DNA from: a virus | Lineage: Duplodnaviria; Heunggongvirae; Uroviricota; Caudoviricetes | IMG/VR virus record: IMGVR_UViG_3300044675_003084 | Span: 65,378 to 94,359 of that record | Length of the DNA stretch: 28,982 bases | Strand: one strand, 5' to 3' | Part shown: in pieces, positions 6,575 to 20,440 of the stretch | Numbering within the stretch: the stretch's first letter is position 1 | Layout: every line of letters begins with the position of its first letter | Program-made: the position numbers and the translations under genes | Notes under the pieces: model-generated | The model's database searches: none | What the model saw: the letters and a program-made list of their open reading frames with translations, nothing else | What the model was told of the DNA's origin: nothing

Positions 6575-7128
6575 TAGTATGTTCTCTCCTCAATTTGAAC
6601 TTGTGAACGTTTTACCATCATACCAGTAGCAACAAGTTGCATACTTGCATCTGAGAATGTGTTTGTAGATTGGTCATATATTTTTGATGAACCACCTATT
6701 AACATAGTATCCATAACATTATTTATTTCATAGTAAAATTCATCAAACAAAATAATGTCTCCAATTTCAGGATATCCATATTGTGTATTTTGTATTGCAT
6801 CTGCAGGGATTTCGTTACCATTGATATCTCGTATCTTTGGTATCTCATGAGTTCTCAATCTTTCTTTATTAAAACGGAATTCTACATTTTGTTGTGTATC
6901 CGGTCCAAATTCATCATAATTTGAAGTAGTGTTCTCCCTATCAACAATACACATTAAATTAGCAGGTGCATGGTATATTTTACCCAATGATTCACCATAT
7001 AAATTAGTTTTTGATTCACCAACTGATATTTTGAATAAAGTAATAGTCGTTTCCACTACATAATCTACCACTTCTTCAGCGATAGTTTTTATGAATTCCA
7101 AATCTCTACTATGAAAAAACTTTGGCAT
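6574..7128 (-). CDS. T4 gp14-like neck/head-closure protein
   Basis: N-LYGE...Y..P and P.IGDIILFDE.YYEINNV motifs; sits between the gp13-like and gp15-like genes. Confidence 0.6.
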   Translation of the reverse strand: MPKFFHSRDLEFIKTIAEEVVDYVVETTITLFKISVGESKTNLYGESLGKIYHAPANLMCIVDRENTTSNYDEFGPDTQQNVEFRFNKERLRTHEIPKIRDINGNEIPADAIQNTQYGYPEIGDIILFDEFYYEINNVMDTMLIGGSSKIYDQSTNTFSDASMQLVATGMMVKRSQVQIEERTY

Positions 7129-7134
7129 ATGTTA

Positions 7135-8286
7135 TTATCCTATGTATATTGCTAATGGAACTGATTTAATTATTTTTTGTTGTTGTTCAACCATATTGGA
7201 TTCATTTTCCATTCTGGTCTTTTTACTAACCTCTTCTAAGTTTTCTCTCAATTGAGTTACTAATGATTCCTTTTCAGTTTGTGCTTCTGCTCTTAGTGCT
7301 GCACCATCTAATGAAACATCCGAACCAGGAATTGGTATAGTAGAATATTTTTCTCTAATTGCACCTAATAATTCTTTAGCAAGTGCAAGTGTGTATTTTC
7401 TAATCCATTGTTTACCAACATCATTAATTTTTGAGTAATCTTGAAACTGATATCCAACATTTGAATAATCACTTACAACATTTGGTGTTATTATAGTATT
7501 TCCTTCTCTGAAATCCTTTTTAACCATATACTCAAACCATAATCTTTCAGTTGTAGTTGGTATTGGGAATATTTGTATTTTATTATTGACAATATTAAAA
7601 CTAAATGCGGATTTACGGAATTGGTCATTGAATTCAATCGCTTGAATTCTTAACATATCCTCATACATTGGCATTAGAATAAATTGTGCGGCTGGGGAGA
7701 ATGAACCAAACCCGAATTCATCGATTAAGTTCAATGTACCTTGTCCAGAAACTGAATAAGGGTCAAAGAAACGAGAGATTGCCGGAGTGGCTTCGTAAAA
7801 TACTTTAGTTATATCAAGTCTTTCACCACTCTCACTTACATCACCCCATAATTCTTGTAAATCATAACTTTGAGTACCTGCCGATGCAAGGATACTTCCC
7901 CTTTTAATATCAATTCTACCACCAACATTTGCTTGAGTACCATAACCTTCGGCAATAGTAATTACATTGTTCAATTCACTTCCTAATACTGATTTATTGG
8001 TGAAATTTGAACTTGTGGGTTGACCTTCAAGGGCACCCATATTGTTTCGTATGTTAAATTGATTGACTTGTGCAGAATATTCACTCACTGCCTCTTCAAA
8101 CACCGCAAAGAAACTACTTGATATCAATTCTACATCTACAATTGGATAACCCAACCTCTGTGCACACCACGATGCAACTTTAGGTGCATCTTGTTGAAAT
8201 CTTGAATCATTATCATATAATCCGAATGGGGTAGATGAACCAGTAACGAAAGTTGCCGTACCTGTCCATACTCTTGATTGCGACAT
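7135..8286 (-). CDS. T4 gp13-like neck/head-tail adaptor protein
   Basis: LGYPIVDVEL...F.EAV.EY at the N-terminus and WIRKYTLALAKELLG.IR.KY..IPIPG..V.LDG..L at the C-terminus. Start moved from 8334 to 8286 (MSQSRV) because TAAGGAG lies 7 nt upstream. Confidence 0.75.
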   Translation of the reverse strand: MSQSRVWTGTATFVTGSSTPFGLYDNDSRFQQDAPKVASWCAQRLGYPIVDVELISSSFFAVFEEAVSEYSAQVNQFNIRNNMGALEGQPTSSNFTNKSVLGSELNNVITIAEGYGTQANVGGRIDIKRGSILASAGTQSYDLQELWGDVSESGERLDITKVFYEATPAISRFFDPYSVSGQGTLNLIDEFGFGSFSPAAQFILMPMYEDMLRIQAIEFNDQFRKSAFSFNIVNNKIQIFPIPTTTERLWFEYMVKKDFREGNTIITPNVVSDYSNVGYQFQDYSKINDVGKQWIRKYTLALAKELLGAIREKYSTIPIPGSDVSLDGAALRAEAQTEKESLVTQLRENLEEVSKKTRMENESNMVEQQQKIIKSVPLAIYIG

Positions 8287-8332
8287 ATTTATTCTCCTTA
8301 ATACATTTATTCTTATATAAATATAAAATAAC

Positions 8333-8363
8333 AAAAAAGGGAGTGAATAAATCCACTCCCTTT
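8333..8363 (-). terminator. Rho-independent terminator
   Basis: Minus strand reads AAAGGGAGTGGAT-TT-ATTCACTCCC-TTTTTT, just after the 123-aa gene. Confidence 0.85.
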
Positions 8364-8385
8364 CAAATCTTATGTTTTATATCTA

Positions 8386-8757
8386 TTATCCTAAGTTAAT
8401 TAGTTTATATTTTGTTGAGTATAATAGTTTAGCAATATTATCTAATTCATTCTGAATCCAACTTACCTTTAATTTATCTTGCTGTCTTTCATTTTCTAAA
8501 AATTTAATAAGTTTATCAAAATAAGCAATTATGTTTTCTTTTGATGAATCAGTATCTATTCCGTTTACTTGTTTGTAAGTTATCAAACCATATTTACCTT
8601 GATATGCTTCAATTAAACCATCTAATAGAGGTATAAGTTCTGTATAATAGGTTTGTAATGCTAAATGTAACGCAAGTGAACCCGGTCCATTAACTCCTGT
8701 GTGGAATTGATGTGCTTGTGTTCTACTATGAAAAAAAATTGAAGCTAATTGTTCCAT
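8386..8757 (-). CDS. Ferritin/Dps-like four-helix-bundle phage protein (DUF5856-like)
   Basis: AHQFH...LHLALQTYY...DGLIEAYQG pattern resembles Dps/ferritin-like helices. Has its own TATTTATA motif and terminator. Confidence 0.55.
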   Translation of the reverse strand: MEQLASIFFHSRTQAHQFHTGVNGPGSLALHLALQTYYTELIPLLDGLIEAYQGKYGLITYKQVNGIDTDSSKENIIAYFDKLIKFLENERQQDKLKVSWIQNELDNIAKLLYSTKYKLINLG

Positions 8758-8810
8758 ATAATATTGGTATTTCTTATAAATATACTAAAAAAAATATTTA
8801 AATTAGATTA

Positions 8811-9572
8811 TTATATTTTAAAAGTTATTTTTTGTTTTGAAAATGAATAACGTACACATTCTGTTTTAGTATCTGGTAATTCGGATTCCCATATTTGTGC
8901 TATTCCTAACATAGCAGTATCATAATATTCTGGCAGATGGTCTTTTACAAAATCATGATGACACATTATAGTAGGATGGCCATCTGATTCATATGGAACT
9001 GGAGTATCTTTAAATCCATATGATTGTGGGGTGTATTTACTAGAATATGTTTGTAAACTTTCCTCCATATATACATCTTTTTTATAATCATTAATAAGTA
9101 GGGTTACATTGTCATCAGTTTTTAATGTATTACCGGTATCAGTTTGTAATAAATCAAATGCTTGAAGAATTTTATACTCACATCCAATACTATCTAATAG
9201 AGCCTTCATAGTTTTAACCATAAACCAAGTGTTATATATTGAATGTTCATCATTCCACACTTCTCTTACAAATTTTTCACCAAATATATGTTCTGAGTTA
9301 TAAATGTTCCCATTTAAATTGAATGCTTTGTATTGTGGGTTGTATATATCAATTCTATTAAAACTACTTAACATTATTAACACCACATCATTTTTAGTTA
9401 TAGTTGTTTTTAAATGCATTTCATATAATTTTTCAGCAGCATAGTAATTACCTGCCCCTGCTTGTGCACAATTATAATGTTGGTCGAAACCGGTTGCAAT
9501 TATATTAGCCCAACTTGGCCAAAAGTATTTGGTATAACTACAACCGAATGTATATAATCTCCTTTCTGTCAT
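8811..9572 (-). CDS. SGNH/GDSL-like hydrolase-fold phage protein
   Basis: LYTFGCSYT (block I), YNCAQAGAGN (block II), VVLIMLSSFNR and DGHPT (block V). Start moved to MTERR at 9572 because the track start at 9593 lies inside the terminator. Confidence 0.55.
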   Translation of the reverse strand: MTERRLYTFGCSYTKYFWPSWANIIATGFDQHYNCAQAGAGNYYAAEKLYEMHLKTTITKNDVVLIMLSSFNRIDIYNPQYKAFNLNGNIYNSEHIFGEKFVREVWNDEHSIYNTWFMVKTMKALLDSIGCEYKILQAFDLLQTDTGNTLKTDDNVTLLINDYKKDVYMEESLQTYSSKYTPQSYGFKDTPVPYESDGHPTIMCHHDFVKDHLPEYYDTAMLGIAQIWESELPDTKTECVRYSFSKQKITFKI

Positions 9573-9591
9573 TATTATAAATATTAGACAC

Positions 9592-9616
9592 AAAAAAAGG
9601 GAGAATATCTCCCTTT
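9592..9616 (-). terminator. Rho-independent terminator
   Basis: Minus strand reads AAAGGGAGA-TAT-TCTCCCTTT-TTTT, after the small-gene island. Confidence 0.85.
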
Positions 9617-9647
9617 AACAAATGAACAAACAAACAAAAGCAATATC

Positions 9648-9914
9648 TTAATATTCAATCATTGAGACCGGTACGTTGTATGAAGCAAATCCACCTTTTA
9701 CTCTCAAATTGGCTTTAGTTCGGTTGATTTTAACAACCTCTAACTCTCTACCCATTAATTTCGGGTGATTTACTTTAACCGTCATACCTACTTGCAATGA
9801 CAATTTCTTTTCTAACGATTCTATGGTACGTTTTTGTTTAATCAGTTCAATAACCATTTGGTTAACATTACGCAATTCTGCTACTGATAATTTTGATAAT
9901 TCTGAATAATTCAT
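9648..9914 (-). CDS. Small hypothetical protein, N-terminal helix plus SH3/KOW-like domain
   Basis: LQVGMTVKV...LEVVKINRTKANLR...YNVPVSMI; A-rich leader. Confidence 0.65.
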   Translation of the reverse strand: MNYSELSKLSVAELRNVNQMVIELIKQKRTIESLEKKLSLQVGMTVKVNHPKLMGRELEVVKINRTKANLRVKGGFASYNVPVSMIEY

Positions 9915-9937
9915 GTCTTTTATGTTTTAAATTTTAA

Positions 9938-10150
9938 TTAATCTATTTCACCGAATACTCTAATCCATTCCTCATTGGTAATTCCTGTCATAAGAAACTC
10001 CCTTTCGTCCATTGTTAAGTTTGGAACGATGTTTTGTATCAATTCTTTTGAGTTATAACGATTCTCTACTCTTAGTAACTCATCTTCGGTAATATTGATA
10101 TTCAATGTATGTTCAATACCGGTTAAACTGCTGATTTTTGTAATATTCAT
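9938..10150 (-). CDS. Small conserved-looking phage hypothetical protein (70 aa)
   Basis: SSLTGIEHTLNI...IQNIVPNLT.DEREFLMTGIT.EEW; tightly packed with an A-rich leader. Confidence 0.7.
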   Translation of the reverse strand: MNITKISSLTGIEHTLNINITEDELLRVENRYNSKELIQNIVPNLTMDEREFLMTGITNEEWIRVFGEID

Positions 10151-10168
10151 ATTTTTATATTTTAAGGG

Positions 10169-10411
10169 TTACCAACACAACATATCTCCTGCCTTATCCC
10201 AACTTCTAGCACCACTTTCGGTTGCTTTGTGAAGTGTATTGTAATCCACATCTAAGTTGGAATTACCGAACTGGCGTTTAAGTTCTGATTTAAACTCTTT
10301 AAGGTTTCTAGCCCAAACATCGTTGAACCCACCACTTACCCAATTGAATTGGTATCGGTACTCACCTTTTGAATTCTTTAACAATCTTTCATACTTTGCT
10401 CTGTGTTTCAT
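10169..10411 (-). CDS. Small hypothetical protein (80 aa)
   Basis: Preceded by the 41-bp promoter-like repeat and a tandem ATAAAAT leader. Confidence 0.7.
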   Translation of the reverse strand: MKHRAKYERLLKNSKGEYRYQFNWVSGGFNDVWARNLKEFKSELKRQFGNSNLDVDYNTLHKATESGARSWDKAGDMLCW

Positions 10412-10455
10412 AATTTTATATTTTATATTTTATATTTTATAGTTTATTATCTCTC

Positions 10456-10496
10456 AATCTTATAAAGCTAATCTACAACTTTTTTTTCACATTTCC
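10456..10496 (-). promoter_or_regulatory. Putative early promoter, copy 1 of a 41-bp repeat
   Basis: 36/41 identical to 11098..11138. Minus strand reads GGAAATGTG-N10-TGTAG.TTAGCTTTATAAGATT, upstream of a small-gene block. Confidence 0.65.
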
Positions 10497-10516
10497 TAAT
10501 ATTTTAGGACTTATTT

Positions 10517-10825
10517 TTATAAATAAGTTGGGCCATAATGAGACCATTTAGCTGTTCCATCAAATATGTTTCCTCTACTATGTTTAGCCGGGGCTCTCCA
10601 ACTGGCAGGTTTCATTAAATCACCTTTTTTAACCGGAACTCCCATATGGTAACCATCAATCATTGAAACGAACGCCCATACGTGGTTACTATCCATAATT
10701 TTCATAAACTTAGAACCCTTTTTAACCTTTAACGGGGTATAATCACTATAATACTCACCTGATTCGTGTCTTTTTTTACGTTCTGCATCAACCTTTCCTA
10801 ACCAAATTTCAAATTGCGTTTTCAT
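10517..10825 (-). CDS. Conserved phage hypothetical protein (102 aa)
   Basis: KFMKI...VWAFV...GDLMKPASWRAPAKHSRGNI, a motif I recognise from many T4-like phage small proteins. Confidence 0.75.
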   Translation of the reverse strand: MKTQFEIWLGKVDAERKKRHESGEYYSDYTPLKVKKGSKFMKIMDSNHVWAFVSMIDGYHMGVPVKKGDLMKPASWRAPAKHSRGNIFDGTAKWSHYGPTYL

Positions 10826-10837
10826 ATATCTTATATT

Positions 10838-11068
10838 TTATTTTAACCATAAATTGTAAACATAATCATACTTTACGTTCAAAGTATCTGCAAGTTTCTC
10901 AAACAATCTCTCTCTGATTACACTATCGGTAACACCTATGTATCGGTAAACATCCTCACCAACAATCAGTTTATTTAATAGACCGGGAAACGTTGGGGTT
11001 TCATTCAATTCTAATCCCAAATCATCGGTTGGGAAGTTCTCTACATAATACTCTTTAATTGTGCTCAT
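10838..11068 (-). CDS. Small hypothetical protein (76 aa)
   Basis: First gene after promoter copy 2; A-rich leader. Confidence 0.7.
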   Translation of the reverse strand: MSTIKEYYVENFPTDDLGLELNETPTFPGLLNKLIVGEDVYRYIGVTDSVIRERLFEKLADTLNVKYDYVYNLWLK

Positions 11069-11097
11069 ATCTTTTATATTTTATTTGTTTATCTCCT

Positions 11098-11138
11098 AAT
11101 CTTATAAAGCTAAACTACACATTATTTATCACATTTCC
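11098..11138 (-). promoter_or_regulatory. Putative early promoter, copy 2 of the 41-bp repeat
   Basis: Near-identical to 10456..10496; TAGCTTTA resembles the Bacteroidota -7 element TAnnTTTG. Confidence 0.65.
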
Positions 11139-11299: not shown

Positions 11300-12928
11300 C
11301 TAGATTGAAGCCAAATCTTTAACATAAATCTTACCATAGAATTCTGGACGGACCATCTTCTTAGCGTAACGAGTCATAACACCACGACGAGGCGTGAAGT
11401 TAGATGGGTCGTACACTAATGGAGTCATAATCAATGGTACATATGGAGCATAAACCGCACCAGTCTCAAGGAAGTTACTTCCTTTGAATCCTAATAAGAT
11501 TTCGTTAGAAGTCATATAAGGGTTCTTGTAAACTGTATAACGAGATGCCAAAGAACCTACTTGAGATACACCAGCTGCGAAAGATGTAGCATCTTTATCC
11601 GCGTTAACTGAGAAACCAGGAATTGATTCTAAGATAGTACAAACATCTGGAGATGCAACGATGAAGTTAGCACCACCACGAAGAGTTAATTGATGAATCT
11701 TGTTAGAAACTTTGTTCAATTTAACACCTAATGTTTGGAACCATGTATTTTTTTGGTATGCCAATGCATTAGTACCAGCAGTCCAACTACCATCTTGAGA
11801 GTTAAACTCTTCACCGATTGTTGCTGACCAATATTCAGTTGTCAACGCGTTAGACTTTAACATATCTAAGATTTCTAAGTCAATCTCTAAAGAGATATAT
11901 TCAGATAACATAGAAGTTAATTCAGCTTCAGCATCGATTGAATGGTATGCATTCAAATCTTGTGCCAATTCTGGTGTCCACACTGCTTTCAACTTACGAG
12001 TCTTAGCAACGATTGCCTCAGAACGTAATTCTAAGTCAACTTCAGGAATACCTAAATCAGTTGCTGGTTCAGTTGGGTTACCATCTTCGAAATCACCACG
12101 TGTGTTTGAAGTTGGAGCCAATGAATACTGAACTTCTAAAGATTTTGCAGCACCTGGTGCTGTTACTTTACCATAGAATACGATATTTGAACCTGAAATT
12201 CTTGTTTGTCCAGGATAATATAAATCAGCTGCTGCAAAAGCAGGTGATTGAACTGCAAATGAACGTACTGCTTCTGCATCTAAACTTGGTAATTCTGATG
12301 TTGCAACAGAGAATCTTTTAAGTGTACCTGCGTCTACTGAAGCAGATAAAGCTGCATCGTATCCAACTTCTTGCCAGTTTGCAGAACCAGTTGTTACAGC
12401 AGATGCTGCAATTGATTCACTAACATTGTTAACTGTGTATCCGTAACGTCCTTCACCATAAAGACCGTTTACAGCTGATTTAGTTCTACCATAATCAGAA
12501 CTAAAGTTTGAAGTACCATTACCACCGAAAAGTGATTTACCAGCACCACCAGCACTGAATGCAGGGTTACCATTTACACTTGTTCCGTATTTGAAATCTA
12601 GATAGAATATAAGACCTGAAGGTAAGTTCATTGGTTGAACTGAAACGAATTCTTTCGCTGCAATTTCACCAAAGATTCTTCTTACTAATGGTAAAGCTAC
12701 ACCAGACCATTCTTCAGAACCTGCTGAAGTACCAGTTGCGGTAGCTTCATCCAATAATTGTTTCGCTTGGTTCTCTAATAGAACTGCGATTTGAGATTGC
12801 TCTCTTTCTTTTAAACCTTCTAAAAGACCAGTTGCTTCCCATTTGCTTTTCAATTGACGTGTTTCAGCCAACATTACCGCTTGTGGGTTCTTGCCTTCCA
12901 TAAGTTTAGATAAATTAAAATTTGCCAT
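11300..12928 (-). CDS. gp23: Major capsid protein (T4 gp23-like)
   Basis: LALPLVRR-like segment, VSVQPMNLPSGLIFYL, AKTRKLKAVWTPELAQDLNAYHSIDAEAEL, YAPYVPL and F.PRRGVMTRY motifs. Probable maturation site LLDE/AT at residue 61/62. Confidence 0.97.
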   Translation of the reverse strand: MANFNLSKLMEGKNPQAVMLAETRQLKSKWEATGLLEGLKEREQSQIAVLLENQAKQLLDEATATGTSAGSEEWSGVALPLVRRIFGEIAAKEFVSVQPMNLPSGLIFYLDFKYGTSVNGNPAFSAGGAGKSLFGGNGTSNFSSDYGRTKSAVNGLYGEGRYGYTVNNVSESIAASAVTTGSANWQEVGYDAALSASVDAGTLKRFSVATSELPSLDAEAVRSFAVQSPAFAAADLYYPGQTRISGSNIVFYGKVTAPGAAKSLEVQYSLAPTSNTRGDFEDGNPTEPATDLGIPEVDLELRSEAIVAKTRKLKAVWTPELAQDLNAYHSIDAEAELTSMLSEYISLEIDLEILDMLKSNALTTEYWSATIGEEFNSQDGSWTAGTNALAYQKNTWFQTLGVKLNKVSNKIHQLTLRGGANFIVASPDVCTILESIPGFSVNADKDATSFAAGVSQVGSLASRYTVYKNPYMTSNEILLGFKGSNFLETGAVYAPYVPLIMTPLVYDPSNFTPRRGVMTRYAKKMVRPEFYGKIYVKDLASI

Positions 12929-12962
12929 TTTATTTTTTCTCCTTTGGGGTTGTTTTTTTTGT

Positions 12963-14078
12963 TTATTTAATATTTGCTAATTTCTTGAAACGTTCTGCCA
13001 TAGAATTGCTTTCTGCTATAATTGTTTTTGGAGCAGTTGAAGCAACTTTTTTCGATGCGAATGATTCATTCATTTTAGTTTGTTGTTTTACCTTCTTAGC
13101 AGTTCCACCAATTTTCATTGATTCAGCTAATGTAGAGAAAACTAATTTTACTTCTCTAACGTTTTGAGTTCTATCCAAAGTTTCAACAACTTTGTGTTTT
13201 TGCTCATTAGTTAAATCGTAAGAACGGAATAATTTGTTAGTATACAATAATTTTGCATTTAACAAGTTTACTTCGTTGATTGTAGATTTCAAAGATTTGA
13301 TAACTTTGTATGCTTCTTCTAAATCAGCTTGTAATTCAGCTTTTTCTTCATCAGCACCTTCTTTCATTTCCTCTTCTTCACCTTCCATTTTTTCGTCATC
13401 ACCATAACCCATTTCACGTAAGATTTCGTCTAAGTCGATTTCTTCGTCTTCTTCGGATACTGGTTCTGCTTTTTCGTCACCTTCTGCAACAGCTTCTGGT
13501 TTTTCTTCCTCTTCAACATACTCAGGTTTTTCAGATTCGAATTTTGCTTCGCCTTTTTCTTCACCTTCTTCTGTCATTGGGTCGTTTTTACCATCTAACT
13601 CTTGTTCTAGTTCTCTGATAATTTCTTCTAAATCGAAATCATCTTCATCCATAGGTTCTGCTTTTTCTTCTTCAGAAATTGCTCCAGTTGGGTCGTCGTT
13701 AACACCATCTTCATTAGCATCGTCATCGCCTTCTGCTAATGGCATGTTTTCGTCTTCTTTACCTGGTTCTGCTGTTTCTTTGTCAGTATCACCTAATTCT
13801 GTGTGTGCGTCAGTTGAGATACCCTGTGGGTCTTTGTTCTCAACATCGTCAAATTTTGTGCTGTCTGCATCCGATGTGTCATCTGCACCATACTCTTCAG
13901 TTACATCTGCTGTCTCTTCTTCTTCACCTTCCATTTCGGCTGTGATTTTCTTAGATAAGATAGATTGTAATCTTGGAGTAAAAGCTTCCTCTAATGCGAT
14001 TTTAGCATTAGCGATTGCAGTTTCACGTACGGCTTTAGCATCAGCAATTGCATCTTTCAACAATTTTGAATTTGCCAT
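12963..14078 (-). CDS. Prohead core scaffold protein (gp22-like)
   Basis: Very acidic central region, coiled-coil EVNLLNAKLLYTNKLF C-terminal region, immediately upstream of MCP. Confidence 0.8.
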   Translation of the reverse strand: MANSKLLKDAIADAKAVRETAIANAKIALEEAFTPRLQSILSKKITAEMEGEEEETADVTEEYGADDTSDADSTKFDDVENKDPQGISTDAHTELGDTDKETAEPGKEDENMPLAEGDDDANEDGVNDDPTGAISEEEKAEPMDEDDFDLEEIIRELEQELDGKNDPMTEEGEEKGEAKFESEKPEYVEEEEKPEAVAEGDEKAEPVSEEDEEIDLDEILREMGYGDDEKMEGEEEEMKEGADEEKAELQADLEEAYKVIKSLKSTINEVNLLNAKLLYTNKLFRSYDLTNEQKHKVVETLDRTQNVREVKLVFSTLAESMKIGGTAKKVKQQTKMNESFASKKVASTAPKTIIAESNSMAERFKKLANIK

Positions 14079-14276
14079 TTGTTTTCTTCCTTTACTTTTT
14101 TTTCTGAAAATATTGAGTGATTTTCAATCGAATTGATTAAGTTAGTTGTTCGGTGACCTCACATAAGGGTGGGTATTCATTAACCAACGGGATAAAATTA
14201 AACCTACATTAAGTAGGTTATTATAGAAATAAATATATAAATGTTTACGAAACCGCAAAATTTATGTAAAATATTT

Positions 14277-14579
14277 TTAATCTCTTGAGGTGTCTTTATC
14301 TGATTGAGGTGTTTTTTTACTAACTTTCTTTTTCTTTTTAGTAAAAAACCTAATCGTTCTATCACCATCTGCAATCTTACCGAGAGCAACTCTTTTTTGC
14401 TCTTCTCTGATTGCCTTTTGTTTTTGTAATCGTCTTTTTGTAGTAGGTTTAACGTATTCCTTTCTTTCTCTTAGTTCTAAGAGGTGTCCAGATTCCATAA
14501 CCTTTTTTTTGAATTTCTTTAAAGCCTTTGCAATGTCTCCATTACGAACTTCGACTGTAACTCTTGATAATCCGCTCAT
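14277..14579 (-). CDS. rpsU: Phage-encoded 30S ribosomal protein bS21 with a basic C-terminal extension
   Basis: V.VRNGDIAKALKKFKKKV..SG.L.ELRERKEYVKPTTKRR matches the bS21 signature. Confidence 0.92.
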   Translation of the reverse strand: MSGLSRVTVEVRNGDIAKALKKFKKKVMESGHLLELRERKEYVKPTTKRRLQKQKAIREEQKRVALGKIADGDRTIRFFTKKKKKVSKKTPQSDKDTSRD

Positions 14580-14636
14580 TAATTGTATTTAAATTGTGTT
14601 TGTAACTTATTTGGTAATAAATATGTCTTTTATAGA

Positions 14637-15677
14637 TTATTTGCTTAAAAGGAACAATGCTTCTTCAGCTTCTTGTTGATTTTTAATCTTTGGGTCTTTA
14701 TACATATCTACTTTATATCCCCTTAACGCATTTGATAAGAATATCATATACTTAGGATGTCCTAATTTTTCTTCTAATGCAGATAATGAATCATAAAACG
14801 ATTGCTCATTTCCTTTATTCATTTTTTCTGCCATTTTGAATTCATCTTTATGTTTATCAATGTACGATGAAGTTGAATCTTTATATCCATATGCAGCTTC
14901 TTTATTTATTTTCTTACCTGCTTCAACTGCATCTTTATATGCTTGAGAATTTTTAGGTGATGATTTCTCACCTCTAGCTTTTTTTGCGTTAATATTAGCC
15001 CATAGACCGGGATTTTTTTCGTTTATAGCTTCTTCTAATGGCCATTGTTTTAACCACTTTAACCAATCTTTAGTATGCCAATCGTTTCTTTCCCTTGCAC
15101 CTACTTTGTAGTATTTTGTAAATACATCTCTTAATTCCTCTTTGTTATTAGCAAAACCAGGTATTTTACCTGCAACGTTTACAAATTCATTTGCACTAGC
15201 ATAATGTTCCATTGAGTTAGATAACATATCTACTAATGCTAACATTGCTTTATCATTACCTATTGCTTCTCTCAATCCCAAACGTTCTTTCATTTGCTCT
15301 TCAGTAATTTCACCAATTTTATAGTAACGAGATAGGATATGACCCATATCTTCGTATAATCCATGTAATCTTTGGTCTAAGTTCTTTGCTTCTATTGCAA
15401 CTTGGTCAAATGATTTACCTAATTTGGTTAATTCATTCATATTACGTTTAACAGTATGTGCATCAAACCAATCATCTGCTTCGTTTACCGCCAATTCTCT
15501 AGCTGCATCGGTAATACCACCCAAAGTTTCTGCAACTTCAGTAATATCTGATTTTCTATCCATCATTTCTTGATACTTGTTGTATGTAGAAACGATTTCT
15601 AAGAAATGTTTTTTTACTTCGTTAGAAAATCTTTTTGGTTCTTCACCTTCTTTAACTATCTTTGATAAACGTATCAT
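14637..15677 (-). CDS. Putative internal head/core polyprotein (346 aa)
   Basis: Begins MIRLSKIVKE/G; modules bounded by LREA, LEEAINEK and NKEA; TAGGAG SD. Confidence 0.7.
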   Translation of the reverse strand: MIRLSKIVKEGEEPKRFSNEVKKHFLEIVSTYNKYQEMMDRKSDITEVAETLGGITDAARELAVNEADDWFDAHTVKRNMNELTKLGKSFDQVAIEAKNLDQRLHGLYEDMGHILSRYYKIGEITEEQMKERLGLREAIGNDKAMLALVDMLSNSMEHYASANEFVNVAGKIPGFANNKEELRDVFTKYYKVGARERNDWHTKDWLKWLKQWPLEEAINEKNPGLWANINAKKARGEKSSPKNSQAYKDAVEAGKKINKEAAYGYKDSTSSYIDKHKDEFKMAEKMNKGNEQSFYDSLSALEEKLGHPKYMIFLSNALRGYKVDMYKDPKIKNQQEAEEALFLLSK

Positions 15678-15687
15678 TTAATATCTC

Positions 15688-16959
15688 CTATTTTACTAAT
15701 TTTGCTAATTTTATTGATTCTGATTTAAATGGATTAAATAATCCTCTATTATTTACTTCCTTTTCAGTAGATGGTGCAACTTTTGCATTTTGTTGGTGTT
15801 TGTTTTTTATTGGATTATATTTTTCCAATTCATCAACATTAACATTACCATCTGCATCGGTCTTAACCTCACCCGATTTATCATCACCCATTCTTACAAT
15901 ACCAACTGTCTTAGTTCTTTTGTTATAAACTAAATCATCTTTTTTGAATTTACCTTCTTTAACCATTTTAGTTAACGAAATTGTACCTTCATTCTTTTTA
16001 ACTGGCTCGTATCCCCTGTCAACTTTATCTTTTTTCTTAGCATCAGAGTCTTGTACACCTGGTTCATTTGGTTCATTATCATCAAAATCTATTGTATCCT
16101 TTTCAGCAGGAGTTCCCATATGTTTACCATACATAGATGTAGCATGATGTTGATTAAAATCTTGTTCTGCTTCACTATCTTCAGTATTAGAAAGACCTGT
16201 ATTAAAATGTTTAGGTTCGCCCTCATTAACCATTTTAGTTAACGAAATTCTACCTTCATTCTTCATATATGGTTTATTATCAAATACTGATTGAATTAAA
16301 TCCGCTTCTTTATGAAATCCATTCATCCTTAATGTAAATGCTATACCATCTGCTGCATCAACTCCATCCCATCCTGATGCTTGTGATACATCCGTACCAT
16401 AATCATCAATCTCACCAGTTCCGTTCATATAAACCGAACCATCTGCCGAATTCTTACGAATATCAGCCATTTTTTCTTTATACTTAGGGTCTTTGATTGA
16501 TGGATATTCAGGTCTTTTTGCAAATTCAGGTTTTCCTTCAATTGCTGCAACCAATTCTCTTGCCTCACTATGGAAGTTTGAATCAGTTAGTGCAGAAACT
16601 GCTGCTTGTAACATTGCTTCTTTATACTTTTCATTACCCAACTTTTGTGGAGTAATACCATATTGTTCTGCTTTTTTCTTAGCTTCTTTATTTACTTGAG
16701 GATTACCTGGTCTTTTCTTTTTAGGTTCTGACGTTGGTTCATCCTTCTTAGGTTCTGCTGCAGGAGTATTAAATATATTTGTGGTTGGAGTAGATGCTTT
16801 TTTAGAAGTATCACCTCCTTTATCAGCTACTTTAGAATGAGTTCCTGCTTTAACTGCAGAATCTCTACTATCCTTTGATTTGAACACCGATGTTTTACCG
16901 GTCTTCTTATTAGTAGCGGTAAATGTTTCTTCGTTAAGTAAATTATTTAATTTAATCAT
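15688..16959 (-). CDS. Putative internal head/core polyprotein (423 aa)
   Basis: Begins MIKLNNLLNE/E; contains ISLTKMV(N/K)EG twice and ends IKLAKLVK. Confidence 0.7.
   Translation of the reverse strand: MIKLNNLLNEETFTATNKKTGKTSVFKSKDSRDSAVKAGTHSKVADKGGDTSKKASTPTTNIFNTPAAEPKKDEPTSEPKKKRPGNPQVNKEAKKKAEQYGITPQKLGNEKYKEAMLQAAVSALTDSNFHSEARELVAAIEGKPEFAKRPEYPSIKDPKYKEKMADIRKNSADGSVYMNGTGEIDDYGTDVSQASGWDGVDAADGIAFTLRMNGFHKEADLIQSVFDNKPYMKNEGRISLTKMVNEGEPKHFNTGLSNTEDSEAEQDFNQHHATSMYGKHMGTPAEKDTIDFDDNEPNEPGVQDSDAKKKDKVDRGYEPVKKNEGTISLTKMVKEGKFKKDDLVYNKRTKTVGIVRMGDDKSGEVKTDADGNVNVDELEKYNPIKNKHQQNAKVAPSTEKEVNNRGLFNPFKSESIKLAKLVK
15959..16263 (-). repeat. 38-bp direct repeat (15959..15996 and 16226..16263) encoding NEG(R/T)ISLTKMV
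   Basis: ttaaccattttagttaacgaaatt(g/c)taccttcattctt, 37/38 identical. Confidence 0.9.
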
Positions 16960-16978
16960 TAGTTGATGTTCCTATATT

Positions 16979-17419: not shown

Positions 17420-17429
17420 ATTGTATCCT

Positions 17430-18029
17430 TTACGCTAATTCAGTAATGATTTCTCTCATAAGGTCTTGTGCCTTACAATACTCACCACAAACTATAGCTT
17501 GTTCTTTTAATTGTCTATTTACTGATTCGTTCATCGTAACCGGTGTCATAAATGCACCATGTGTAGACGGGTTAGAAACAAAATCCCAACCAATCAGTTC
17601 AAAATCATCAGCCACTTTAACTTTACCTTCGCCAATGTTAACTACCGAACCCATACCACGAGAAGAAATACCCAAAAGGATACCTGCTCTTAATAATTCT
17701 TTTAAGATGTTACCTGATGGAGTTGGTAGAATTTCTACTGTCCCACAAAGGTCATCACCTTCCCAATGAATTTCTTTGACGTTATGAGAAACGTTCTTTA
17801 AATTGATAATACCAGAATCTGGATGGTCTAACTCCCCTAATGCACGTCTTTCTTTAATAAGAACTTCGTATTTCTTTGCTTCACGCATTAAGATATCTTT
17901 AGGGTATATACGACCATTTTGGTTTTCTGCAACCGCTCTTTGAAGAATACCTTTAACTAAAGTTTTACCACTTGAATCTTCATTTAATTTTCCTTCAAAT
18001 AATGTTGTTTCTATTAATAAATTTTTCAT
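17430..18029 (-). CDS. gp21: Prohead core protease (T4 gp21-like)
   Basis: GILQRA...NQNGRIYP...ALGELDHP...NVSH...G..EILPTP.G...GISSRGMGS...DFVSNPST..A motifs. Start moved to MKNLL at 18029 (TAATG coupling to the upstream 58-aa ORF). Confidence 0.95.
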   Translation of the reverse strand: MKNLLIETTLFEGKLNEDSSGKTLVKGILQRAVAENQNGRIYPKDILMREAKKYEVLIKERRALGELDHPDSGIINLKNVSHNVKEIHWEGDDLCGTVEILPTPSGNILKELLRAGILLGISSRGMGSVVNIGEGKVKVADDFELIGWDFVSNPSTHGAFMTPVTMNESVNRQLKEQAIVCGEYCKAQDLMREIITELA

Positions 18030-18205
18030 TATGCTCCCCACGTTTTTCTCTTTTTAAAGAGGTCAAAAAATATTGCAGATACTTCTTTACGAATGATATC
18101 ACGAATAAGTTTTTCATCTTCAGTCGTGATTTCTTCTTTGACGATACCCCATTTTACTTTGGTTATCTCTTCGTTAATAATATCTAACAATCTTTTTCGT
18201 GTCAT
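18029..18205 (-). CDS. Small hypothetical head-associated protein (58 aa), missing from the ORF track
   Basis: Manual translation MTRKRLLDIINEEITKVKWGIVKEEITTEDEKLIRDIIRKEVSAIFFDLFKKRKTWGA*; fills the gap exactly and its stop overlaps the protease ATG. Confidence 0.8.
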   Translation of the reverse strand: MTRKRLLDIINEEITKVKWGIVKEEITTEDEKLIRDIIRKEVSAIFFDLFKKRKTWGA

Positions 18206-18207
18206 TG

Positions 18208-18516
18208 TTATTTTTTCTTTACTGATTCATTTGCTTTTTTACCAGCTCTTAAATCTGCTAAATCATCACTACCGATATCACCATCTTTATCAACATCTAA
18301 TTTCTTTTGACCGCCCACTAATTCTTCATTCTTCTCGCCCTTACCATTCCATGCTGCATCAATTTTATCAAAGAATGCTTTCTTTTCTTCATCTGACATA
18401 GATGGAATTGATTTTCCAGCTTTATCTAATGCTTTTTGAAAGAATGCCTGATATTCATTTTCTTCAATCATTACTCCTTTGATGATTTCTTTTAATCGTG
18501 TACGTGATATTTTCAT
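18208..18516 (-). CDS. Small head-associated protein with an EF-hand-like loop (102 aa)
   Basis: DVDKDGDIGSDD fits DxDxDGxI..xD; shares its start/stop junction with the upstream gene. Confidence 0.7.
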   Translation of the reverse strand: MKISRTRLKEIIKGVMIEENEYQAFFQKALDKAGKSIPSMSDEEKKAFFDKIDAAWNGKGEKNEELVGGQKKLDVDKDGDIGSDDLADLRAGKKANESVKKK

Positions 18517-19523
18517 TATTTTTCTATCTCCTGTATTGTTTTTGCTATGTTGATTAATCGTTCCTTTATCTTATAAATATGTCCGTGCGTTCTTTTCCAA
18601 AATGTATCGGAACTTAATTCATTCATAGTCTTAATTTGATTATACCAACGAAAAAAAGTTTCAACCTCTTTTAATTGATATTTTAATTCTCTCAAACCAG
18701 TAGCTAACTTCTTATTAGCATGCATTGATTCATCATTTTTTAATTCTAACCAACGATTTACTGGTCTTTGAATTTTCTTTCCCTCTGATAAACTCTCATC
18801 CATATGTTCTAAACCATATTTCATAATAGTTTTATCATCCAACATCTTACCATTAAGAGTAAACATACGTTTACCTTTGTAATAAACTGACCAATTACCT
18901 TGTGGGGTTGCATCGACAGTAATATTTTTTAAATCCTTTATACTTCTATCATTAACTTGAATAGCATCTAAGAATTTTTCTGCTTTAGGGTCTAATGCTT
19001 CGTTTACTGATTCGTTTGTTGATACAAATAATCTTACTGAAAGAATTACATCGTTACCTATTTTTAAATTACTTACTTTATGTTTTTCTAAATCATAAGC
19101 CGGATTGATTGTAGTTGCTTTAGCAATTACACCATCTTTAATAAAGTGTGGTTGTAATCCAGAGTAGTTATCATCTCTAAACATAAAAACATCTTTAGGG
19201 GATTCCTTAGATATTTTAATTATTTTCATTAAACCTTGCTTACCGATAAAACACCCACCTTCACACTTACTTCCACCATAAGTTTTACCTTTTTGTAATG
19301 ATATTTCATTTACTGATTCATCAATATTGTTAATATCATTATTTACTAATGTATAACCGAATTGTGTTGCAGTTTTTTTTCTTTTTTTATCAGAATTTTT
19401 ACCAGAAAAGGCATGAGGAGTATCGTAGCCATCAACATTACCTGTCACATTGGCTTCATCTAATTCATCTTCGACTTCCTTAATAAGTTCGTCTATAAAA
19501 GATTTAATATTTTTTTCTGACAT
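18516..19523 (-). CDS. Putative internal head/core polyprotein (335 aa)
   Basis: N-terminal LDEANVTGNVDGYDTPHAF and C-terminal helical segment flank two cassettes delimited by ESVNE. Confidence 0.7.
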   Translation of the reverse strand: MSEKNIKSFIDELIKEVEDELDEANVTGNVDGYDTPHAFSGKNSDKKRKKTATQFGYTLVNNDINNIDESVNEISLQKGKTYGGSKCEGGCFIGKQGLMKIIKISKESPKDVFMFRDDNYSGLQPHFIKDGVIAKATTINPAYDLEKHKVSNLKIGNDVILSVRLFVSTNESVNEALDPKAEKFLDAIQVNDRSIKDLKNITVDATPQGNWSVYYKGKRMFTLNGKMLDDKTIMKYGLEHMDESLSEGKKIQRPVNRWLELKNDESMHANKKLATGLRELKYQLKEVETFFRWYNQIKTMNELSSDTFWKRTHGHIYKIKERLINIAKTIQEIEK

Positions 19524-20373
19524 TGGTTATTTCCTTTATTAATTCATATGATATCATCAACGCTGAAACCTGTTCATCCGTAATTTTCTTTCCTATCTTT
19601 TGTGTTTTTAAAACATTGATAGTTTCTTTTAATTTAATTTTTGTGATTTTATCATTAACTTCGGAATGTAATTTGTGAAGTTCAGTTACTACTTTTTTTA
19701 ATTGTGAATCGTAGTATTCACCGAATTTAGATGTATTATTAACATTATTAATAAATTCTCTTAAAAGACCTTTTTGGTCGTCGTTTAAGTTAGTGTATTT
19801 ACTATTAAATGTTTCAACTAGTATTTTATATGTCAACAATCTCAAATCCTTTTCTTGATTCTTATATGTTTCCATTAATTTATCTTCAATCTTCTTAATA
19901 GATGTTTGGGTTGTAGATACGTGTTCTACTAATGTAATCTTAGCATCAAATACATCCTTAACATTAGTTACATCTTGTATCTTTGCTTCAAAAATCTTAT
20001 GAACCGATGCCAATACTCTATAATTAGAAACAGGCGAGGTAACAAATTCTTCAATATCAAAATTTTCTTTAATAGCCTTTACTAAGTTATACTTTTCTCT
20101 TAATAATTTAGTTTCATCTAATTTAGTACGAGTTTCGATAATAGCATCAATAAATTTTTCTGCTTTACTTTCTGAATTATATTTTTCAGTTGTAAGTAAA
20201 TTGAATAAACGCAATTCCTTTGCTAATTCGGTTTTACCACCAAAAAATTCCTGTACTATTTTTTTAGCCTTTTCAACTGGAGCATTATTTAAAATCTCCA
20301 ACGTGATTTGACGAGTTAAGAGTTCGAATAAAAACCCAGTATTTTTAAATTTCGAATGTTTAATTTTTTTCAT
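19504..20373 (-). CDS. Conserved helical hypothetical protein of the head module (289 aa)
   Basis: MKKIKHSKFKNTGFLFELLTRQIT start, directly downstream of portal, with its own TATTTATA motif and TAAGGA SD. Confidence 0.75.
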   Translation of the reverse strand: MKKIKHSKFKNTGFLFELLTRQITLEILNNAPVEKAKKIVQEFFGGKTELAKELRLFNLLTTEKYNSESKAEKFIDAIIETRTKLDETKLLREKYNLVKAIKENFDIEEFVTSPVSNYRVLASVHKIFEAKIQDVTNVKDVFDAKITLVEHVSTTQTSIKKIEDKLMETYKNQEKDLRLLTYKILVETFNSKYTNLNDDQKGLLREFINNVNNTSKFGEYYDSQLKKVVTELHKLHSEVNDKITKIKLKETINVLKTQKIGKKITDEQVSALMISYELIKEITNVRKKY

Positions 20374-20440
20374 TGTTTTTAAATCCTTATTTTGATAGAC
20401 TCAAATTTCTATATATAAATATAAAAAATTAGAAGTTAGA

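What the first reader, a model, noticed from the sequence alone, without database searches (positions are those of the whole stretch)
7128..20390. Candidate translational switch: SD motifs on abundant head/neck genes plus a phage bS21
Seen in the sequence: AGGA(G) motifs lie 4-11 nt before the ATG of MCP (AAAGGAG-10nt), scaffold (AAAGGA-9), 346 aa (TAGGAG-7), 423 aa (TAGGA-10), 146 aa (AAAGGA-6), protease (GGGGAG-4), 102 aa (AGGAG-11), 335 aa (AAAGGA-8), 289 aa (TAAGGA-10), gp13-like (TAAGGAG-7) and gp14-like (TAGGA-9). In contrast bS21, portal, terminase, the 219-aa, 58-aa and 1413-aa genes and the small island genes have purely A/T-rich leaders. Established: Bacteroidota ribosomes largely ignore SD sequences because bS21, bS18 and bS6 sequester the 16S anti-SD (shown in Flavobacterium johnsoniae), and bS21-carrying large phages expressing it late are already known. 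Inference: the phage bS21 replaces the host copy, frees the anti-SD, and selectively boosts high-copy virion proteins, giving a ribosome-level late and stoichiometry switch. A few motifs lie inside the upstream gene and could be coding coincidences.
Basis: partly seen in the sequence, partly recalled or inferred. Interest (0 to 1): 0.88.

Follow-up and report, generated by a model that had tools for sequence, protein, structure and literature searches.

The report
SD-led virion genes plus Tyr54-less phage bS21
A large lake phage of Bacteroidota, bacteria whose ribosomes normally ignore Shine-Dalgarno sites, puts real Shine-Dalgarno sites in front of its most abundant virion genes and also encodes a ribosomal protein bS21 that lacks the residue used to hide the ribosome's anti-Shine-Dalgarno tail, which gives a testable case of a virus re-tuning host ribosomes.

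Summary
All 11 motifs are present. Genome-wide, 29 of 84 leaders carry an SD core 4-13 nt before the start codon, against 13% at internal ATGs (p=5e-7). Virion-module genes have 22/35; other genes have 7/49.

The host is very probably a Sediminibacterium-like Bacteroidota. The phage's TonB receptor is 75% identical to that group's, and Bacteroidota-type promoters precede its replication genes. Candidate hosts are SD-poor (5-6%), have Tyr54 bS21 and have an extended SD only on rpsU.

The phage bS21 has Arg at the Tyr54 position, a Lys-rich tail and no SD of its own.

Across viral contigs, loci with non-aromatic bS21 are 37% SD-led. Tyr/His-type loci are 4%. The bS21-less Flavobacterium phage immuto is also 4%.

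The link is not strict:
- Relatives with no visible bS21 keep an SD on MCP and scaffold.
- Some Arg-type relatives are near background.
- Two Tyr-type relatives have SDs.
- Published F. johnsoniae data show that Y54A boosts only strong SDs.

The switch is therefore plausible (about 45%) but unproven. First-reader notes in this scan raise similar ideas on other genomes.

The parts
14277..14579 (-). Phage bS21 gene (100 aa). The core aligns without gaps to solved bS21 structures. It has a Lys-rich C-terminal tail and an SD-less A/T-rich leader.
   Evidence: Pfam PF01165 scores 55.9 bits against a cut-off of 27. The leader has no SD core.
14406..14408 (-). Codon 58 (AGA, Arg), which occupies the position of the Bacteroidia signature Tyr54.
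   Evidence: The phmmer alignment is gapless: phage KAIREEQ against Bacteroidota-type KAIYVKQ (9i5v_9), with 7jil_z ending at residue 53 opposite query residue 57. The sequence was read. Arg is invariant in 13 family members.
12939..12945 (-). SD of the major capsid protein gene (AAAGGAG, 10 nt before the ATG, -9.2 kcal/mol).
   Evidence: An (A)AGGA(G) motif is conserved in all 8 members of the window's sub-clade.
11300..12928 (-). Major capsid protein, Gp23-like.
   Evidence: Pfam PF07068, E=1e-75.
14088..14093 (-). SD of the scaffold-like 371-aa gene (AAAGGA, spacing 9).
   Evidence: The same motif and spacing occur in the 289-kb relative L002.
12963..14078 (-). 371-aa scaffold-like gene directly upstream of MCP.
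   Evidence: Its position is conserved in relatives. It has no Pfam match.
15685..15689 (-). SD of the 346-aa head gene (AGGAG, spacing 7).
16970..16973 (-). SD of the 423-aa head gene (AGGA, spacing 10).
17426..17431 (-). SD of the 146-aa gene (AAAGGA, spacing 6).
18034..18037 (-). SD of the prohead protease gene (GGAG, spacing 4), taking the first ATG at 18029.
   Evidence: Pfam Peptidase_S77.
18528..18532 (-). SD of the 102-aa gene (AGGAG, spacing 11). It lies inside the upstream gene.
   Evidence: It is conserved in L002.
19532..19537 (-). SD of the 335-aa gene (AAAGGA, spacing 8). It lies inside the upstream gene.
   Evidence: It is identical in L002.
20384..20388 (-). SD of the 289-aa gene (AAGGA, spacing 10).
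8294..8299 (-). SD of the gp13-like neck gene (AAGGAG, spacing 7). The true start is the ATG at 8286.
   Evidence: The orthologue in relatives hits Pfam Phage_T4_gp13.
7138..7141 (-). SD of the gp14-like 184-aa gene (AGGA, spacing 9).
6586..6590 (-). SD of the 381-aa neck/tail gene (AGGAG, spacing 11). This lies outside the finding's coordinates.
20441..22171 (-). Portal gene (Gp20-like) with an SD-less leader.
   Evidence: Pfam Portal_T4. The leader is shown. It is also SD-less in L002.
22245..23828 (-). Large terminase gene with an SD-less leader.
   Evidence: Pfam Terminase_6N. The leader is shown.
14616..14624 (-). Near-consensus late box (ATATTTATT on the coding strand), about 45 nt upstream of the bS21 ATG.
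   Evidence: The ATATTTATA family occurs 22 times on the coding strand and 4 times on the other.
14201..14219 (-). Terminator-like hairpin followed by a T-rich run, just downstream of bS21.
9648..11068 (-). Island of five small genes (70-102 aa) with SD-less leaders. Each has an AAAAYATAAAA motif 12-13 nt before the ATG.

Best explanation
The window is the head and neck part of a roughly 200-kb-class T4-like phage (the contig is estimated 47% complete) that infects a freshwater Sediminibacterium/Chitinophagaceae-like Bacteroidota.

The AGGA(G)/AAGGA elements are genuine, selected Shine-Dalgarno sites. They are complementary to the host 16S tail (..ACCUCCUUUCU), sit 5-12 nt before start codons, are conserved at orthologous genes, and are graded in strength with copy number: MCP is strongest, then neck, sheath and tube, then minor proteins, and there is none on portal, terminase or bS21.

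Host genes, including ribosomal-protein genes, lack such sites, because Bacteroidia ribosomes clamp the anti-SD tail in a bS21/bS18/bS6 pocket.

The phage bS21 keeps the N-terminal core of the family but has Arg in place of the clamping Tyr54, plus a long Lys-rich tail. Its own leader is SD-less, so ordinary host ribosomes can translate it.

The most likely mechanism has three steps. Phage bS21 is made with the virion genes. It then exchanges into 30S subunits and shifts the 16S tail towards the free state. This gives SD-led virion mRNAs an advantage over SD-less host and phage mRNAs.

Shown: the motifs, their statistics, the host signals, the residue change, and the cross-phage association. 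Inferred: exchange into ribosomes, liberation of the anti-SD, and the translational boost.
For: Motifs and statistics.

Conservation at orthologues: the 289-kb relative keeps an SD on scaffold, MCP, the 335-aa, 102-aa, gp13, gp14 and 381-aa genes, and keeps bS21 and portal SD-less. All 8 MCP leaders in the sub-clade have (A)AGGA(G).

Host:
- The TonB receptor is 73-75% identical over its full length to Sediminibacterium/Chitinophagaceae chromosomal genes, one of them on a 5.26-Mb contig.
- Four TTTG-N19-21-TATCTTTG promoters precede replication genes.
- Host bS21 reads KAIY54KQ, and the host rpsU leader is GAGGAGGTAT at -12.9 kcal/mol.
- The host 16S ends in ACCUCCUUUCU.
- Host SD frequency is 5-6%, below the 10-12% background.
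- Host ribosomal-protein operons have SD on 3/28 and 3/30 genes.

bS21:
- Arg58 sits at the Tyr54 position, where E. coli has Lys.
- Arg is invariant in the family.
- 21/23 phage bS21 genes in this lineage are SD-less.

Literature: Tyr54 stacks on A1534, and the Bacteroidetes bS21 C-terminus is less basic than elsewhere (PMC7797042). Y54A gives +70% from a strong-SD reporter in vivo and 3-fold more rpsU'-gfp in vitro, with SD-less output unchanged (PMC9976891). Pocket mutations liberate the tail (PMC13000457).

Comparative:
- Non-aromatic bS21 loci are 37% SD-led (190/513, 24 loci). Tyr/His loci are 4.3% (31/726, 51 loci). 0/25 MCP leaders in Tyr-type loci have an SD.
- At cluster level the comparison is 10 against 8 clusters, p=0.002.
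- Immuto is 4%. The complete bS21-less genome G006 is 8%.
Against: - Relatives of the same MCP lineage with no bS21 in 20-kb view are still 18% SD-led against 10% background, mostly on MCP and scaffold.
- The complete 369-kb genome G006 has no bS21, bS18 or bS6, yet has SD-like motifs on MCP, sheath and tube.
- An 11-member Arg-type sub-clade has an SD-less MCP and roughly 20% SD overall.
- G005, which has an Arg-type bS21, is at background genome-wide.
- Two Tyr-type loci inside this lineage have 23% and 50% SD, so lineage and residue 54 are partly confounded.
- In F. johnsoniae, ribosomes with a C-terminally truncated bS21 (delta-C) or Y54A did worse than wild type on a weak-SD mRNA. Stimulation needed strong or extended SDs, whereas most phage SDs are only 4-7 nt (-4 to -9 kcal/mol).
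- Freed ribosomes should also boost the host rpsU, which would work against replacement.
- Some SD-led genes (gp32, helicase, thioredoxin) belong to the replication module.
Confidence: 0.45

Rival explanations
1. The SD sites are real, but they are read by host ribosomes that already have a free anti-SD. These would be the natural bS21-lacking subpopulation, possibly enlarged after host shut-off. The phage bS21 would then have another job, such as keeping ribosomes replete for SD-less translation, countering a host translation-stalling defence, or selecting phage mRNAs through its N-terminal helix. The Arg54 change would be incidental to SD use.
For: - An SD on MCP and scaffold is common in relatives with no visible bS21 and in the complete bS21-less genome G006.
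- Some Arg-type relatives are SD-poor, and two Tyr-type relatives have SDs.
- A bS21-free ribosome subpopulation exists in F. johnsoniae, and the N-terminal part of bS21 is needed for SD-less translation (PMC9976891).
- Chen et al. proposed N-terminal selectivity and counter-defence roles (PMC9723584).
Against: - The contrast between non-aromatic (37%) and Tyr/His-type (4%) bS21 loci would be unexplained.
- Arg at position 54 is invariant in the family.
- Host highly expressed genes do not exploit such a subpopulation.
- Immuto, a cultured Flavobacterium phage of the same lineage without bS21, has no SDs at all.
Confidence: 0.25
2. The true host's ribosomes are not SD-blind. Either the host assignment is wrong, or Chitinophagales ribosomes behave differently from those of F. 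johnsoniae. In that case the SD sites are ordinary and the phage bS21 is an ordinary SD-compatible bS21.
For: - No host is cultured for this phage.
- The relative Mel-JY01 is recorded as a Microcystis phage, is SD-rich and has an SD-led bS21.
- Ribosome structures exist for only a few Bacteroidia.
Against: - The TonB receptor is 75% identical to Sediminibacterium genes.
- Bacteroidota-specific -33/-7 promoters precede the phage's replication genes.
- Candidate hosts have Tyr54 bS21, the rpsU extended SD, SD depletion genome-wide and SD-less ribosomal-protein operons.
- Two thirds of the phage's own genes use SD-less A/T-rich leaders.
Confidence: 0.08
3. The purine-rich elements do not act through the anti-SD. 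They could be sites for a phage RNA-binding regulator or for an mRNA processing or stability factor, or by-products of A/G-rich leader composition and coding constraints in overlapping genes.
For: - Most motifs are short (4-6 nt).
- Several lie inside upstream coding sequence.
- The coding strand is purine-rich.
Against: - There is a 2.6-fold excess over internal-ATG controls on the same strand.
- The spacing distribution is SD-typical.
- The motifs always match the 16S-tail complement (AAAGGAG register).
- The motifs are conserved while their flanks diverge.
- Lineages with Tyr54 bS21 are depleted of them.
Confidence: 0.07

Closest known systems
bS21-encoding freshwater Bacteroidetes phages (Chen et al. 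2022, ISME Commun, PMC9723584)
   Same: Both are large T4-like phages of Bacteroidota. In both, bS21 sits inside the TerL-portal-protease-MCP module and is proposed to substitute into host ribosomes late in infection.
   Different: In the Chen et al. phages, bS21 is on the strand opposite to the structural genes, and all 61 proteins keep an aromatic residue at position 54. Loci of that type are SD-depleted at 2-4%, and 0/25 of their MCP leaders have an SD. Here bS21 is co-directional and lies immediately upstream of scaffold and MCP. It has Arg at position 54 and a basic tail, and most virion genes are SD-led.
rpsU autoregulation by bS21-lacking specialised ribosomes in Flavobacterium johnsoniae (McNutt et al. 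2023, PMC9976891; PMC13000457; PMC13000453)
   Same: The logic is the same: the bS21 status of the 30S subunit decides whether the anti-SD is free, and hence whether SD-led mRNA is translated. The Y54A allele partly frees it.
   Different: That circuit controls one host gene with a 9-13 bp SD (below -13 kcal/mol). Here there are dozens of phage genes with 4-7 nt SDs. The effector would be a foreign bS21 allele that stays bound, not the absence of bS21. Weak SDs did not respond in that system.
bS21 paralogue-specific ribosomes in Francisella tularensis (PMC9578407, PMC12262407)
   Same: Swapping bS21 paralogues changes which mRNAs are translated well.
   Different: That system is a cellular one with three chromosomal paralogues. 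Its selectivity is not tied to unlocking a sequestered anti-SD. I did not analyse it here beyond the abstracts.
Pelagibacter phage HTVC008M bS21 (Mizuno et al. 2019, as cited in PMC9976891)
   Same: It is a phage-encoded bS21 in a T4-like myovirus, reported to incorporate into E. coli ribosomes.
   Different: Its host is an alphaproteobacterium with no known anti-SD sequestration. No link to SD usage has been described. tblastn with the window's bS21 found no match in the cultured-phage collection.

Membership tests
Ribosomal protein bS21 (Pfam PF01165) | Profile match above the curated cut-off | tested here: met
   55.9 bits against a cut-off of 27, residues 8-59.
Ribosomal protein bS21 (Pfam PF01165) | Core aligns to solved ribosomal bS21 chains | tested here: met
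   24 PDB bS21 sequences match at E<=0.01. The alignments are gapless through the KP motif to residue 65.
Ribosomal protein bS21 (Pfam PF01165) | Incorporation into 30S subunits | not testable with these tools
   This needs ribosome purification from infected or expressing cells.
Bacteroidia-type, anti-SD-sequestering bS21 | Signature Tyr54 that stacks on A1534 | tested here: not met
   Arg58 occupies that position. The candidate host bS21 has Tyr there.
Bacteroidia-type, anti-SD-sequestering bS21 | Short (about 64 aa), weakly basic C-terminal part | tested here: not met
   The phage protein is 100 aa with a KKKKKVSKK tail. The hosts' proteins are 64 aa and end in ...SGKIEG or ...LDQEK. The criterion comes from PMC7797042.
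Bacteroidia-type, anti-SD-sequestering bS21 | Gene preceded by an extended SD (autoregulation) | tested here: not met
   The phage leader has no SD core (+1.3 kcal/mol). The host rpsU leader is GAGGAGGTAT at -12.9 kcal/mol.
Chen et al. 2022 bS21 phage clades | bS21 embedded among TerL, portal, protease and MCP | tested here: met
   and the same synteny in relatives.
Chen et al. 2022 bS21 phage clades | [quoted passage not shown] | tested here: not met
   All 86 genes, including bS21, lie on one strand.
Chen et al. 2022 bS21 phage clades | Aromatic residue at position 54 | tested here: not met
   Arg.
Chen et al. 2022 bS21 phage clades | Late co-expression of bS21 with structural genes | tested here: inconclusive
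   A near-consensus late box lies 45 nt upstream. Six metatranscriptome runs hold 53-60% of the sampled words of window 11300-15700.
Canonical Shine-Dalgarno translation initiation sites | Complementarity to the 3' tail of the host 16S rRNA | tested here: met
   The motifs are sub-strings of AGAAAGGAGG. The candidate host tail is ..ACCUCCUUUCU.
Canonical Shine-Dalgarno translation initiation sites | Restricted spacing to the start codon and excess over background | tested here: met
   The peak is at 6-12 nt, with none at 0-3 or 14-16 nt. 35% of leaders against 13%, p=5e-7.
Canonical Shine-Dalgarno translation initiation sites | Conservation at orthologous genes | tested here: met
Canonical Shine-Dalgarno translation initiation sites | Actual SD-ASD pairing during initiation in the host | not testable with these tools
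   This needs toeprinting, reporter assays or ribosome profiling.
T4-like (Gp23-type) myovirus virion module | Gp23 MCP, Gp20 portal, S77 prohead protease, sheath, gp19 tube, T4 baseplate protein | tested here: met
   Pfam hits.

The most novel reading that the evidence does not exclude
A widespread family of phage bS21 alleles, with a non-aromatic residue at position 54 and a basic tail, converts SD-blind Bacteroidota ribosomes into SD-reading ones. This phage lineage would then have evolved a private translation code, with graded SD sites on its abundant virion proteins, that host mRNAs cannot use. Tyr54-type phage bS21s would do the opposite and keep the host mode.
Probability: 0.4. Interest if true: 0.9.

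Novelty: new variant of a known kind. Interest (0 to 1): 0.78.

Why it matters
Phage bS21 is the most common virus-encoded ribosomal protein, yet its function is unknown. Chen et al. stressed that phage bS21 keeps Tyr54 and therefore behaves like the host protein. This genome and its relatives show a second, large class that has lost Tyr54. That class co-occurs with Shine-Dalgarno sites in a host phylum that otherwise avoids them.

If the link is causal, it would be a clear natural case of a virus creating specialised ribosomes with a changed mRNA-selection rule. It would also explain how stoichiometric over-production of capsid, sheath and tube proteins is achieved in SD-blind hosts.

The prediction can be tested with existing F. 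johnsoniae genetics, reporters, in vitro translation and cryo-EM. Even if the link is not causal, SD-led capsid genes in phages of SD-blind hosts remain unexplained and need an account.

Tried and rejected
- tblastn of the bS21 against the cultured-phage collection found nothing at 1e-3, although Mel-JY01 carries an RpsU. The query is too short and divergent, so this is not evidence of absence.
- Assigning each gene to the nearest upstream intergenic late or host-type box showed no association with SD (Fisher p=0.24). SD therefore follows virion function, not the late box. I dropped 'temporal switch' as the main description.
- Rival that the host uses moderate SDs on highly expressed genes: rejected. 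Ribosomal-protein operons of two candidate hosts are SD-less except rplE (and rplF in one).
- Idea that bS21-less relatives carry a phage bS18 or bS6 instead: none was found in G000, G005 or G006.
- Rfam found no family in the window.
- The 198-nt bS21-scaffold spacer folds unremarkably, z=-1.6.
- The generic sigma-70 scan was not above its shuffles.
- No tRNA genes are present on the contig.
No read-level expression, transcription start sites or RNA ends were obtained.
- The protein atlas gave only weak taxonomy for the TonB receptor. It was superseded by the genome-contig scan.
- The origin of the Arg-type bS21 (Bacteroidota-derived or foreign) could not be resolved. Scores against Bacteroidota and E. 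coli bS21 are similar, 32, 30 and 28 bits.

Full report
**What is there.** The window is the last 29 kb of a single 94,359-bp viral contig that CheckV rates about 47% complete. All 86 predicted genes lie on the minus strand. Pfam identifies a T4-like virion module:
- In the window: Gp23 major capsid protein, S77 prohead protease, Gp20 portal and large terminase.
- Further along the contig: tail sheath, gp19 tube, a T4 baseplate protein and fibre genes with endosialidase-chaperone domains.
- Beyond those, a replication and nucleotide-metabolism block: family B polymerase, RNR, RecA-like, gp32-like, DnaB-like, clamp-loader ATPase, thioredoxin, an AsnB-type enzyme and a TonB-dependent receptor.

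A 100-aa bS21 (PF01165, 55.9 bits) sits between head genes and the scaffold-MCP pair, on the same strand.

**The observation.** I called genes without using ribosome-binding information. I scored an SD core (AGGA, GGAG, GAGG, or a 5-mer or longer of the 16S-tail complement) ending 3-13 nt before the start codon.
- 29 of 84 leaders have a core, against 13.2% upstream of 1,865 internal ATGs on the same strand (p=5e-7).
- The spacing distribution is the classical one. It peaks at 7-10 nt and has no hits at 0-3 or 14-16 nt.
- The pattern is wider than the finding. Sheath, tube, baseplate and several fibre genes are SD-led too, so virion-module genes score 22/35 against 7/49 for all others (Fisher p=5.8e-6).
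- The non-virion exceptions include gp32, the DnaB-like helicase and thioredoxin.
- Predicted pairing energies run from -4 to -9.2 kcal/mol, with MCP strongest.

**Host.** Two independent signals point to Bacteroidota.
- The phage's 1091-aa Oar-type TonB receptor is 73-75% identical over its full length to chromosomal genes of Sediminibacterium and other Chitinophagaceae, including one on a 5.26-Mb contig.
- Four intergenic promoters of the Bacteroidota type (TTTG, 19-21 nt, TATCTTTG) precede replication-region genes.

The candidate hosts behave as textbook Bacteroidia.
- Their bS21 is 64 aa with the signature Tyr (KAIY54KQ).
- Their rpsU leader carries an extended SD (GAGGAGGTAT, -12.9 kcal/mol).
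- Their 16S ends in ACCUCCUUUCU.
- Only 5-6% of their leaders have an SD core, below their own internal background of 10-12%.
- Their ribosomal-protein operons are SD-less, at 3/28 and 3/30. rplE (both genomes) and rplF (one) carry strong SDs, and the remaining hits are weak.

The phage's SD use is therefore foreign to its host. Runs holding the sequence are lake and freshwater metagenomes, and six metatranscriptomes hold over half of the bS21-MCP stretch.

**The bS21.** Gapless alignments to solved bS21 chains place phage Arg58 opposite Tyr54 of the Bacteroidia proteins, and opposite a Lys in E. coli.
- Jha et al. describe Tyr54 as stacking on A1534 where the 16S tail turns into the bS18/bS6 pocket. 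They also note that Bacteroidetes bS21 has an unusually non-basic C-terminus (PMC7797042). The phage protein instead has a 40-residue Lys-rich tail.
- Arg at this position is invariant in 13 diverse members of a family of at least 143 metagenomic proteins.
- The members whose context I checked lie in the same head-module slot of phages up to 289 kb.
- The phage gene has no SD, and neither do 21 of 23 bS21 genes in the lineage. This is the opposite of the host rpsU.
- McNutt et al. showed that a Y54A bS21 raises output from a strong-SD reporter by 70% in vivo and 3-fold in vitro, without changing SD-less output (PMC9976891). Mutations that compromise the pocket liberate the tail (PMC13000457).

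**Comparative tests.**
1. Flavobacterium phage immuto has the same head module and a known Bacteroidota host but no bS21. It has 0/30 SD-led genes in the module and 4% over 80 kb.
2. A 289-kb relative with an Arg-type bS21 keeps SDs at the same orthologues and keeps bS21 and portal SD-less.
3. Among 80 MCP-related viral loci, bS21 where present is co-directional, about 1.5 kb upstream of MCP, and mostly non-aromatic (Arg, Lys or Leu) at position 54.
4. Among 80 loci fetched with a Tyr-type bS21 profile, nearly all have Tyr54, most are antisense to their neighbours as Chen et al. described, and the neighbours are SD-depleted.
5. With one pipeline, non-aromatic loci are 37% SD-led (190/513, minimum 14%). 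Tyr/His loci are 4.3% (31/726, median 0). None of 25 Gp23-like MCP leaders in Tyr-type loci has an SD.
6. After clustering bS21 at 60% identity, the contrast persists: 10 clusters against 8, medians 37% against 6%, p=0.002.

**Why the causal claim stays open.**
- The MCP tree shows a large clade with no bS21 in the 20-kb view that nevertheless has AAGGA/AGGAG before MCP and scaffold. Its 18 loci are 18% SD-led against 10% background.
- bS21 can hide elsewhere. The complete 252-kb genome G005 has an Arg-type copy 100 kb from MCP.
- The complete 369-kb genome G006 has no bS21, bS18 or bS6. It is at or below background overall (8% against 11%), yet has SD-like motifs on MCP, sheath and tube.
- An Arg-type sub-clade of 11 loci has an SD-less MCP and about 20% SD overall. 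G005 is at background genome-wide, though about a third of its virion orthologues are SD-led.
- The two Tyr-type bS21 loci that belong to this MCP lineage have 23% and 50% SD. Lineage and residue 54 are therefore partly confounded, and independent transitions are few.
- In F. johnsoniae, a weak-SD mRNA was translated worse by Y54A ribosomes and by ribosomes with a C-terminally truncated bS21 (delta-C). Stimulation needed strong or extended SDs. Most phage SDs are only 4-7 nt.

**Temporal or stoichiometric.** A phage-specific box, ATATTTATA, occurs 22 times on the coding strand and 4 times on the other. It lies 23-87 nt before many virion genes and is shared with immuto, so it is probably the late promoter. 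Portal, bS21 (a near-match box), the 1413-aa gene, the TonB receptor and others have the box without an SD. A nearest-promoter classification shows no association with SD (p=0.24). SD presence and strength follow protein copy number instead.

**Verdict.** The motifs are real, selected SD sites in a phage of an SD-avoiding host, and the phage carries a bS21 that has lost the anti-SD clamp residue. The best-supported mechanism, at about 45%, is that this bS21 shifts host ribosomes toward a free anti-SD and favours SD-led virion mRNAs. The main rival, at about 25%, is that such SDs work through naturally bS21-free ribosomes and the phage bS21 does something else.

I found no paper in the library that connects non-Tyr phage bS21 with SD-led phage genes. 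Chen et al. reported only aromatic residues at position 54. First-reader notes in this scan raise the same idea for another genome and note the Arg at position 54 here. Those notes are leads, not support.

Noticed in passing
window 9918-9928, 10153-10163, 10414-10438, 11072-11082; also genome 34.5-36.3 kb (L007) and 13.1 kb (L006): A conserved TTTAAAAYATAAAA motif begins a fixed 11-13 nt before the ATG of at least 10 small genes (51-161 aa) and one 541-aa gene. The fixed distance suggests a promoter for near-leaderless mRNAs or a dedicated SD-independent initiation element.
   Followed up: partly
window 8316-8324, 8775-8783, 9576-9584, 18572-18580, 20414-20422, 22226-22234, 28817-28825 (minus strand): An ATATTTATA box occurs 22 times on the coding strand and 4 times on the other, 23-87 nt before mainly virion genes. 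Flavobacterium phage immuto has the same box before terminase, portal and other late genes. It is probably this lineage's late promoter.
   Followed up: partly
L006/L007: genome 26520, 17545, 8972, 1846 (coding strand): Four near-identical full Bacteroidota-type promoters (TTTGG, about 19 nt, TTCGTATCTTTG) lie 20-37 nt before replication-region genes. A fifth -7 box directly abuts the ATG of the 420-aa gene at genome 31455-32717.
   Followed up: partly
window ~8335-8360 and ~9594-9620 (minus strand): G+C-rich hairpins followed by T runs lie immediately upstream of the gp13-like gene and the 253-aa gene. They look like terminators that insulate the small-gene island and made the longest-ORF TTG starts spurious.
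   Followed up: no
L307:11053-11628 and L308:10803-11363, 12135-12692: In the candidate hosts' otherwise SD-less ribosomal-protein operons, rplE (and rplF in one genome) carries a strong SD (GGGGAGGTAA, -14.1 kcal/mol). A second host gene besides rpsU may therefore respond to free-anti-SD ribosomes.
   Followed up: no
L005 (Microcystis phage Mel-JY01, PP395634.1): This phage is recorded as infecting a cyanobacterium. It shares the head module (MCP 54% identical) and an RpsU without Tyr54. More than half of its genes are SD-led, including bS21, terminase and portal. Either the lineage spans phyla or the recorded host deserves a check.
   Followed up: partly
G005:C1:211139-211399: In a complete 252-kb relative, the Arg-type bS21 is not in the head module. 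It lies about 100 kb away, next to a fibre-like 828-aa gene, so the gene has moved within the lineage.
   Followed up: partly
window 24554-28795 (minus strand): A 1413-aa protein with an N-terminal cytidylyltransferase-like domain lies upstream of the terminase. It has an SD-less leader and a late box 30 nt upstream. G005 has a 1048-aa counterpart (75% identical over 405 aa), and Mel-JY01 has a cytidylyltransferase-like gene in its terminase region.
   Followed up: no
L006:13200-14039 (genome coordinates, minus strand): The strongest SD core outside the virion module (AGGAGG, spacing 9, -10.3 kcal/mol) precedes a 279-aa gene. That gene lies inside the cassette that an earlier report read as a DNA hypermodification pathway.
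   Followed up: no
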